Source: Eledone cirrhosa (taxonomy: Eukaryota). Taken from it: a DNA stretch of 64,000 nucleotides. This document shows positions 53,417 to 59,045 of the stretch, one piece after another; within the stretch, counting starts at the first letter, position 1, and the number at the start of each line of letters is the position of its first letter. Position numbers and translations under genes: made by a program. The notes beneath the pieces were generated by a model that saw only the letters and a list, made by a program, of their open reading frames with translations, was not told the DNA's origin and searched no databases. The DNA is taken from positions 6,324,001 to 6,388,000 of the forward strand of contig OZ024755.1 of assembly GCA_964016885.1 (NCBI GenBank), in the 5' to 3' direction.

Positions 53417-53442
53417 GAAGTGGTTACACAACAGATGGTTCA

Positions 53443-53492
53443 CCATGCCGAGAACAATTGTTTCACCTTAGCGGATCCTCAGCTCGGAATGG
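53443..53492 (-). ncRNA. Minimal type I hammerhead ribozyme (predicted)
   Basis: Minus strand reads ccat-t-ccgag-CTGAGGA-tcc-gctaa-ggt-GAAAC-AATT-GTT-ctcgg-c-atgg. Helix I is 5+4 bp, helix II is short with a U.U first pair, helix III lies in the palindrome AACAATTGTT, and the triplet is GUU. Confidence 0.75.
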
Positions 53493-58473: not shown

Positions 58474-58567
58474 TGGTGGTAAAACACCGGGAGTTTATAA
58501 CCGCAGTGCGACGAGCACTCAGTCAGTACGGCGAGATAATCCGTTGGTTTGTTAATTTGTCGTGGAA

Positions 58568-58627
<60 letters not shown>

Positions 58628-58765
58628 GCAATATTGTATAAATATTGTACATAGATCTATAGAATATGCATACCAACTCTAACATATATATCCTAGAAAC
58701 GATCGTAAAATGATGAATTTTGTTAATATAAGGAACTGTTTCTTTGTTTATTCATTATTTTATTA

Positions 58766-58825
<60 letters not shown>

Positions 58826-58853
58826 GAAGAATCGGAGACGAGATCACATAGGA

Positions 58854-58947
58854 AACATATCTGATGATCTTTCGACTACAGAGTCAGTTTCGGTCAATAA
58901 TAGGTCGTTCCTAAAGCTGATCGATAGGGAAACATATGTAATATGTT
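58854..58947 (+). ncRNA. Type I hammerhead ribozyme with extended helix II (predicted)
   Basis: Plus strand reads aacatat-CTGATGA-tctttcga...tcagttt...aagctga-tcgatagg-GAAAC-ATAT-GTA-atatgtt. Helix I is a perfect 7 bp, helix II is 7 of 8 paired plus a 7-bp extension, helix III lies in the palindrome ACATATGT, and the triplet is GUA (cut predicted after 58940). Confidence 0.8.
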
Positions 58948-58997
58948 ATTAAATATGTTATGATGCAACACTGAATCCTTGTTCCTATATTCTTATA

Positions 58998-59045
<48 letters not shown>

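What the first reader, a model, noticed from the sequence alone, without database searches (positions are those of the whole stretch)
58854..58947. Complete hammerhead with an unusually long helix II and an ACATATGT dimerisation palindrome
All core nucleotides are present (CUGAUGA, GAAAC, GUA) with a perfect 7-bp helix I. Domain II is about 60 nt with two stacked stems, much longer than in typical minimal PLE hammerheads. Helix III is only 2 bp as a monomer but 8 bp as a dimer. It lies in a ~180-bp island between two (TA)n tracts.
Basis: partly seen in the sequence, partly recalled or inferred. Interest (0 to 1): 0.75.

Follow-up and report, generated by a model that had tools for sequence, protein, structure and literature searches.

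The report
Long-stemmed hammerhead in Penelope retrotransposon stub
This is a short, mutated leftover of a common jumping gene that carries a predicted self-cutting RNA motif of a known paired-up type; in this family the motif's second arm is a long conserved rod that the standard RNA library misses, but cutting has not been shown and this copy is likely inactive.

Summary
The motif is there as described. It is not a lone element: 58828-58999 is the 5'-truncated 3' end of a Penelope-like retrotransposon inserted in (TA)n (1409 first-look candidates in the genome). Longer copies lead to an ORF with the motifs of the Hydra clade, and one full-length relative has two same-strand hammerheads 4.9 kb apart. 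Palindromic helix III with dimer cleavage is published for such elements. Across four subfamilies domain II stays 61-62 nt and folds as one unbranched rod; 10 of 11 pairs that differ between subfamilies stay paired. Published Hydra hammerheads have 26 nt or less here. The window copy carries six changes, all in domain II, that are predicted to break the rod. Copy ends pile up about 35 nt above the core and not at the cut site, so the RNAs that were copied were mostly uncut. Unexpected: 7 of 9 long-stem hammerhead clusters in this genome (26-116 nt) share a pyrimidine mismatch at stem II position 4. No RNA data, no cleavage shown. New variant of a known kind; interest 0.42.

The parts
58769..58821 (.). 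(TA)n tract, left part of the insertion target
58822..58827 (.). 6-nt filler at the 5' junction, not part of the family sequence
58828..58999 (+). 5'-truncated 3' end (pseudo-LTR stub) of a Penelope-like element with Hydra-type ORF motifs, subfamily A; starts at the family's common 5' stop, ends at the short 3' end without tail; no inverted partner
58854..58860 (+). hammerhead helix I, 5' strand
58861..58867 (+). core C3-A9 (G5 at 58863)
58868..58928 (+). domain II, 61 nt; in the family an unbranched rod with an unpaired 10.1/11.1, 2 bp, a pyrimidine mismatch and further stems; here changed at 58876, 58888, 58893, 58913, 58914, 58928
58929..58940 (+). G12-A14, palindromic helix III 58932-58939, A17; predicted cut after 58940
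58941..58947 (+). hammerhead helix I, 3' strand
58948..58953 (+). ATTAAA hexamer (AATAAA at the same place in subfamilies B, C, D); possible polyadenylation signal, untested
59000..59044 (.). (TA)n tract, right part of the insertion target
58634..58768 (+). neighbouring insertion: 3' part of a different hammerhead family (palindrome ACGATCGT at 58699-58706; domain II 103-116 nt in full copies), cut inside domain II, so without the 5' core

Best explanation
The stretch is a 172-base stub of a Penelope-like retrotransposon whose terminal repeat carries a type I hammerhead motif that likely cuts only when two copies pair through the 8-base palindrome, and this copy is likely inactive. Shown: family membership, the link to a reverse transcriptase-endonuclease ORF with Hydra-type motifs, insertion in (TA)n, two alternative 3' ends, inverted partners, a full-length element with two same-strand hammerheads, and conservation of a 61-62-nt rod in domain II. 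Inferred: a transcript starts about 35 nt above the 5' hammerhead and runs through the ORF to the 3' hammerhead; the two motifs swap helix III strands and would cut slowly, possibly only with the element's own protein bound, releasing a unit-length RNA. Most insertion events use RNA that is still uncut; when reverse transcription starts in the 5' repeat it runs off the RNA's 5' end after about 170 nt and leaves a stub like this one. The rod is likely a folding or protein-docking element rather than a second catalytic part.
For: Dispersed family, 52 matches listed from 40 scored of 1409 candidates. Variable 5' ends, inverted partners and an optional tail of about 85 nt, the published marks of such elements (PMC8557442 passages; PMC11167929 passages and part 2 of the main text). 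Family 3' end found in 12 of 22 loci chosen for the endonuclease and a family hammerhead in 15 of 16 loci chosen for a long ORF. Endonuclease with CxCX5C, no CCHH, CxxC and CxH; DKT and YRDD upstream; RW(H/R) near the N-terminus, also in subfamily A pieces. L347: two same-strand hammerheads 4880 nt apart around the ORF. Four subfamilies at 56-86% identity: 11 of 28 pairs differ, 10 stay paired, 8 by a change on both sides. 16 of 18 arms that reach 105 nt above the cut stop within the next 23 nt; 38 of 45 arms span the cut site. Window copy: basal stem II probability 0.01 in the isolated domain against 0.75 or more in 22 of 30 subfamily A copies; no partner copy or ORF piece in the window. Dimer-only, weak cleavage of such motifs in PMC4209133 (parts 1-2); protein-assisted cleavage and use of uncut RNA in PMC11167929.
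Against: No cleavage is shown, and copy ends are not enriched at the cut site (4 of 42, 2.9 expected). The youngest subfamily D has an altered core (C at position 4 and one extra base); an insertion after A6 gave low activity in PMC3088659 (passages). L347 (both copies) and L343 lack a perfect palindrome. Position 10.1/11.1 is unpaired in all four subfamilies. In one search the count of pairs with two-sided change (7) did not beat the shuffle (245 of 500 reached it), and the structure was derived from these same consensuses, so its controls lean in its favour. With flanks included, near-consensus A copies are also not predicted to form helix I or the rod, so folding alone does not single out the window copy firmly. 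No intact subfamily A ORF was found; clade placement rests on motifs and by-eye comparison, not on a tree.
Confidence: 0.75

Rival explanations
1. The motif is a conserved structural relic: the rod and helices are kept for protein binding, packaging or transcript start, and self-cleavage has been lost or is irrelevant in this lineage.
For: No copy ends at the cut site; altered core in the young, successful subfamily D; unpaired 10.1/11.1; hammerhead mutants did not affect insertion in vitro in PMC11167929.
Against: Core columns are invariant across A/B/C while 21 of 82 others vary; 94 of 121 descriptor hits keep a palindrome in several different sequences; a U-U mismatch at 10.1/11.1 is a known functional variant (PMC3088659).
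Confidence: 0.15
2. The motif cuts as a monomer, the long rod compensating for the 2-bp helix III through a tertiary contact with helix I, and the palindrome is incidental.
For: Rod conserved in length and fold; fixed mismatch at stem II position 4; non-palindromic helix III in L347 and L343.
Against: Helix III pairing probability 0.01-0.02 in the monomer; the two central bases swap together between subfamilies, which a monomer loop would not need; 38 of 45 arms were copied through an uncut site.
Confidence: 0.06
3. The stub belongs to a non-coding retrozyme or SINE-like family rather than to an autonomous element.
For: Most copies are short and non-coding; internally deleted copies exist (L005, L009); animal retrozymes derive from such repeats (bioRxiv 10.64898/2026.07.22.740005, part 1 seen).
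Against: No head-to-tail arrays: only 3 loci had same-strand pairs, 360-1450 nt apart; continuity with the ORF in many loci.
Confidence: 0.04

Closest known systems
Hydra-clade Penelope-like elements and their hammerheads (PMC8557442: passages, section 11, supplement parts 1, 2, 52 and a search of the supplement)
   Same: C-terminal endonuclease with CxCX5C, no CCHH, CxxC and CxH; DKT; (TA)n target; hammerhead near the 3' end; U at both 10.1 and 11.1 in 14 of 26 Hydra rows of File S2, as in subfamily A; an octopus member (Hydra-1_Obim) is listed.
   Different: Domain II is 26 nt or less in those 26 rows and 61-63 nt here; helix III there is mostly 3-4 bp around a 1-3-nt loop, here an 8-nt palindrome; Hydra-1_Obim has a different hammerhead; elements here are about 5 kb with a long TG/TA-rich 3' region and extra low-complexity protein stretches, against under 3 kb.
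Minimal, dimer-acting hammerheads of metazoan Penelope-like elements (PMC4209133, parts 1-2 of 4 read; Lunse 2016/2017 known only through its title and the review PMC6765202, passages)
   Same: Type I topology, very short palindromic helix III, location in the terminal repeats, mostly solitary truncated copies, enlarged helix II.
   Different: Their helix II is 6-8 bp with a conserved G10.1-C11.1 pair; here it is a 61-nt irregular rod with no G10.1-C11.1 and a fixed pyrimidine mismatch.
PLE-X1_sMoe and PLE-X1_sTam hammerheads (PMC8557442 File S2)
   Same: Long domain II (about 48-53 nt by my count), marked as deviating from the canonical structure.
   Different: Plant, endonuclease-less, rDNA-targeted elements; no covariation shown there; no 8-nt palindrome.
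Poseidon element of Anolis, PAc (PMC11167929)
   Same: Two alternative 3' ends with an optional tail; uncut RNA is the main template; AT-rich target.
   Different: Other clade; ORF starts inside stem II, whereas here the ORF starts about 190 nt below the cut (L347, L343).
Animal non-LTR retrozymes (PMC7229834, passages)
   Same: Type I hammerhead with 2-bp helix III and tetraloop; a U-U mismatch at the base of helix II in one axolotl family.
   Different: Tandem non-coding monomers with loop 1-loop 2 contacts; not seen for this family.

Membership tests
Type I hammerhead ribozyme | Core CUGANGA, GAAA, UH between three helices | tested here: met
   invariant in subfamilies A/B/C; altered in D
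Type I hammerhead ribozyme | Helices I and II supported by covariation | tested here: met
   10 of 11 pairs that differ between subfamilies stay paired; mixed shuffle controls; stem II predicted broken in the window copy
Type I hammerhead ribozyme | Match to an Rfam hammerhead model | tested here: not met
   a library match, not a defining property; likely missed because of the long domain II
Type I hammerhead ribozyme | Self-cleavage after position 17 | not testable with these tools
   no RNA run; copy ends give no sign
Dimer-acting hammerheads of Penelope-like elements | Short palindromic helix III | tested here: met
   perfect 8-nt palindrome in the window and in A-D consensuses; imperfect in L347 and L343
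Dimer-acting hammerheads of Penelope-like elements | Two same-strand copies in one element | tested here: met
   L347, L355; not for the window copy
Endonuclease-positive Penelope-like elements | RT plus C-terminal GIY-YIG ORF between pseudo-LTRs; inverted 5'-truncated partners; optional tail | tested here: met
Hydra clade | CxCX5C linker, no CCHH, CxxC and CxH around E and N | tested here: met
   against section 11
Hydra clade | DKT in place of DKG | tested here: met
   L197, L344, L346, L347, L349, L351, L355, L356; seen in sister subfamilies, no subfamily A copy covered this region
Hydra clade | N-terminal RWK motif | tested here: inconclusive
   RWH or RWR at the matching place
Hydra clade | Insertion into (TA)n | tested here: met
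   window; 25 of 26 A tails and 29 of 29 D tails run into a simple repeat
Hydra clade | Placement in the RT tree | not tested
   published proteins were compared by eye only; Pfam and PDB gave nothing useful
Non-LTR retrozymes | Head-to-tail arrays of short non-coding monomers | tested here: not met

The most novel reading that the evidence does not exclude
The Penelope-like elements of this genome carry a structural subclass of dimer-acting hammerheads in which stem II has grown into a rod of 26-116 nt and the terminal loop 2 is replaced by an internal docking site: two base pairs followed by a fixed pyrimidine-pyrimidine mismatch at position 4, used for a contact with helix I or with the element's protein. 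Each family's palindrome would act as an address for dimer partners. Such motifs escape Rfam and short-loop descriptors, so some elements reported as lacking a hammerhead or having only half a core may have one.
Probability: 0.3. Interest if true: 0.62.

Novelty: new variant of a known kind. Interest (0 to 1): 0.42.

Why it matters
The role of hammerheads in Penelope-like elements is an open question (PMC8557442 calls it unclear). This family offers a natural series for testing it: four subfamilies with compensatory changes, two palindromes, one altered core, full-length elements with paired motifs, and many stubs that record which RNA was copied. It also shows that such ribozymes can carry a domain II several times longer than search descriptors allow, so counts of them are likely too low. 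The window copy itself is an ordinary dead insertion.

Tried and rejected
Rfam: no hammerhead match. Whole-motif folding z-score of -1.55 is not informative. The window copy's own hairpins as the conserved fold: rejected. A Neptune-type parent: the 30 GIY-YIG loci and the young 796-aa family share only TG-rich sequence, no link to this hammerhead. Lower substitution rate in the core among individual copies was discarded, because the copies were collected by anchoring on core letters. The 5'-end mapping for subfamily D used a reference contaminated by inverted arms; only the flanks printed are used for D; B and C samples were chosen with hammerhead queries and are biased. The C consensus is shifted by one base (domain II is 62 nt); one search has the right register. 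Cut-site marking by copy ends: not seen. No RNA holder listed; three contig sets of unknown kind were laid and say nothing about expression. Pfam and PDB searches of the ORF gave nothing useful; the protein atlas gave no result. Base-pairing between the two bulges of the rod is possible in B only. Island 58475-58570 has one weak match in the genome. Lunse et al. and Arkhipova et al. 2017 are not held, so long-stem or mismatch variants may be described there; supplements of PMC4209133 were not read and bioRxiv supplements are closed. Not found in print in 7 paper searches or in scan notes by words and sequence.

Full report
1. Observation. All coordinates check out: a 7-bp helix I, the full core, a 61-nt domain II, the palindrome at 58932-58939 and a predicted cut after 58940, in a 178-bp island between (TA)n tracts. 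Helix III is unstable as a monomer and an 8-bp duplex as a dimer. Rfam sees no hammerhead. A descriptor without a palindrome demand gave 121 hits in the fetched loci, 94 palindromic, and none in the reversed loci, so the motif is not chance.

2. What the island is. A genome search with the island listed 52 matches from 40 scored of 1409 candidates. Copies share a 3' end that runs into (TA)n, have variable 5' ends, often an inverted partner, and an optional tail of about 85 nt. Walking upstream through a long TG/TA-rich region reached an endonuclease with CxCX5C, no CCHH, CxxC and CxH, the marks given for the Hydra clade (PMC8557442 section 11). The family 3' end lies in 12 of 22 loci picked for this endonuclease and a family hammerhead in 15 of 16 loci picked for a long ORF. 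L347 is full length: hammerhead, tail, ORF starting about 190 nt below the cut, long 3' region, second hammerhead 4880 nt after the first. The ORFs show RW(H/R), DKT and YRDD and resemble the published Hydra alignment by eye; no tree was built. That the genome is octopus-like is my inference.

3. The fold. Four subfamilies were sampled (A, the window's; B; C; D), 56-86% identical over the motif. Domain II is 61, 61, 62 and 61 nt, and each folds alone as the same unbranched irregular rod (-16 to -21 kcal/mol). On an alignment of the window copy and the 6 copies nearest to each subfamily consensus (6 of 30, 13, 21 and 23 ungapped copies), rod plus helices I and III are paired in 96% of cells against 89% in shuffles; the count of two-sided pairs did not beat the shuffle. 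The structure was derived from the same families, so these controls lean in its favour. At subfamily level 11 of 28 pairs differ, 10 stay paired and 8 change on both sides, in helix I, the rod and the palindrome centre. The alignment's own predicted fold recovers helix I, the middle of the rod and the 2-bp helix III. The hairpins of the window copy's own best fold are not conserved (63%).

4. The window copy. It differs from the A consensus at six places, all in domain II and each rare in other copies (0-2 of 29). In the isolated domain the basal stem has probability 0.01, against 0.75 or more in 22 of 30 A copies. With flanks included, near-consensus A copies also fail to form helix I or the rod, so this is suggestive only. 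There is no second copy or ORF piece in the window. The neighbouring island has a different palindrome and no 5' core. I read this copy as likely inactive.

5. What RNA was copied. Prompted by earlier scan notes, I took copies by their 3' end alone (30 loci fetched of 42 matches) and mapped 45 arms, dropping rows that matched only simple repeats (its output was cut below these rows). Of 18 arms that reach 105 nt above the cut, 16 stop within 23 nt (10% expected from the rate below; arms are not fully independent); 38 of 45 span the cut; 4 of 42 end at it, 2.9 expected. By my count, in 14 of 17 head-to-head pairs the longer arm ends at this stop, and in 15 of 17 one arm has the short end and the other the tail. 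The window stub starts at the stop and has the short end. D copies stop at a like distance (flanks). Inference: the stop is the transcript's 5' end and the templates were uncut, as found in vitro for PAc (PMC11167929). L347 begins about 180 nt above its cut, so full-length copies need not start at the stop.

6. Mechanism. Most likely the 5' and 3' hammerheads of one transcript pair through the palindrome and cut slowly, perhaps with protein help (PMC4209133; PMC11167929). For: invariant core in A/B/C, the palindrome swap, full-length geometry. Against: no cut-site ends, the altered core in D (C4 and an extra base; compare PMC3088659), and the imperfect palindrome in L347 and L343, which may be an intermediate between the two palindromes.

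7. Wider pattern. The fetched loci hold 170 distinct palindromic hammerheads in 12 clusters seen in two or more loci (single-locus hits dropped), with domain II from 11 to 116 nt. Of the 9 clusters with 20 nt or more, stem II positions 2, 3 and 5 are paired in 9, position 4 is a pyrimidine mismatch in 7, and position 1 is paired in only 4. Some clusters are related, so the number of independent cases is perhaps 4-5. The neighbouring family's 104-116-nt domain folds as a rod with z of -5 to -7 in 4 of 6 copies tested.

8. Against what is known. Dimer-acting palindromic hammerheads in these elements, U-U at 10.1/11.1, (TA)n targeting, tails and inversions are published. In the File S2 table of PMC8557442 Hydra domain II is at most 26 nt; two plant elements reach about 50 nt and are marked deviant. 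A conserved 61-nt rod and the position-4 mismatch were not found in 7 paper searches, but two key papers could not be read. Seen: PMC8557442 passages, section 11, supplement parts 1, 2, 52 and a search; PMC4209133 parts 1-2 of 4; PMC11167929 passages and part 2 of the main text; PMC3088659, PMC6765202, PMC7229834, PMC13725137 passages; bioRxiv 10.64898/2026.07.22.740005 part 1 of 5.

9. Verdict. Real motif, known kind, new structural variant at family level; the copy in the window is an ordinary stub. Interest 0.42.

Noticed in passing
window 58634-58768: 3' part of a second, young hammerhead family (147 first-look candidates) whose full copies have a 103-116-nt rod-shaped domain II and the palindrome ACGATCGT; its parent ORF was not traced.
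   Followed up: partly
L254:1595-1691 (-) and other subfamily D loci: The youngest subfamily (95-98% identity between copies) has C at core position 4 and one extra base after A6, yet keeps rod, helix I and palindrome.
   Followed up: partly
window 58948-58953; same place in B, C, D and L347: ATTAAA in A and AATAAA in the others directly after helix I; looks like a kept polyadenylation signal, but could be AT-rich chance or a tertiary contact.
   Followed up: no
all fetched loci: At least 12 hammerhead clusters with 6-, 8- or 10-nt palindromes of different sequence and domain II of 11-116 nt; 7 of 9 long ones have a pyrimidine mismatch at stem II position 4.
   Followed up: partly
window about 53440-53490 (-): A complete short hammerhead (domain II 11 nt, palindrome ACAATTGT, 5-bp helix I) of another family.
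   Followed up: no
L343, L344, L347 ORFs: Hydra-type ORFs with about 200 extra low-complexity residues before the WFN motif and a long TG/TA-rich 3' region; elements about 5 kb, longer than published Hydra elements.
   Followed up: no
L005, L009, L010: Internally deleted copies that join an inverted arm, the ORF start and the 3' end; present at three nearby places.
   Followed up: partly
L201 and L357: Tandem arrays of about 450-560-nt units, each with a short hammerhead (palindrome ACTAGT): retrozyme-like.
   Followed up: no
L134, L147 and others: A young Neptune-type family with intact 796-aa frames and a microsatellite-like 3' region over 1.5 kb.
   Followed up: no
window 58475-58570: A 96-bp island between (TA)n tracts with only one weak match elsewhere in the genome; unexplained.
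   Followed up: partly
window 58929-58983: Contigs that share this 3' half continue upstream in other sequences, which hints at further subfamilies with different domain II.
   Followed up: no
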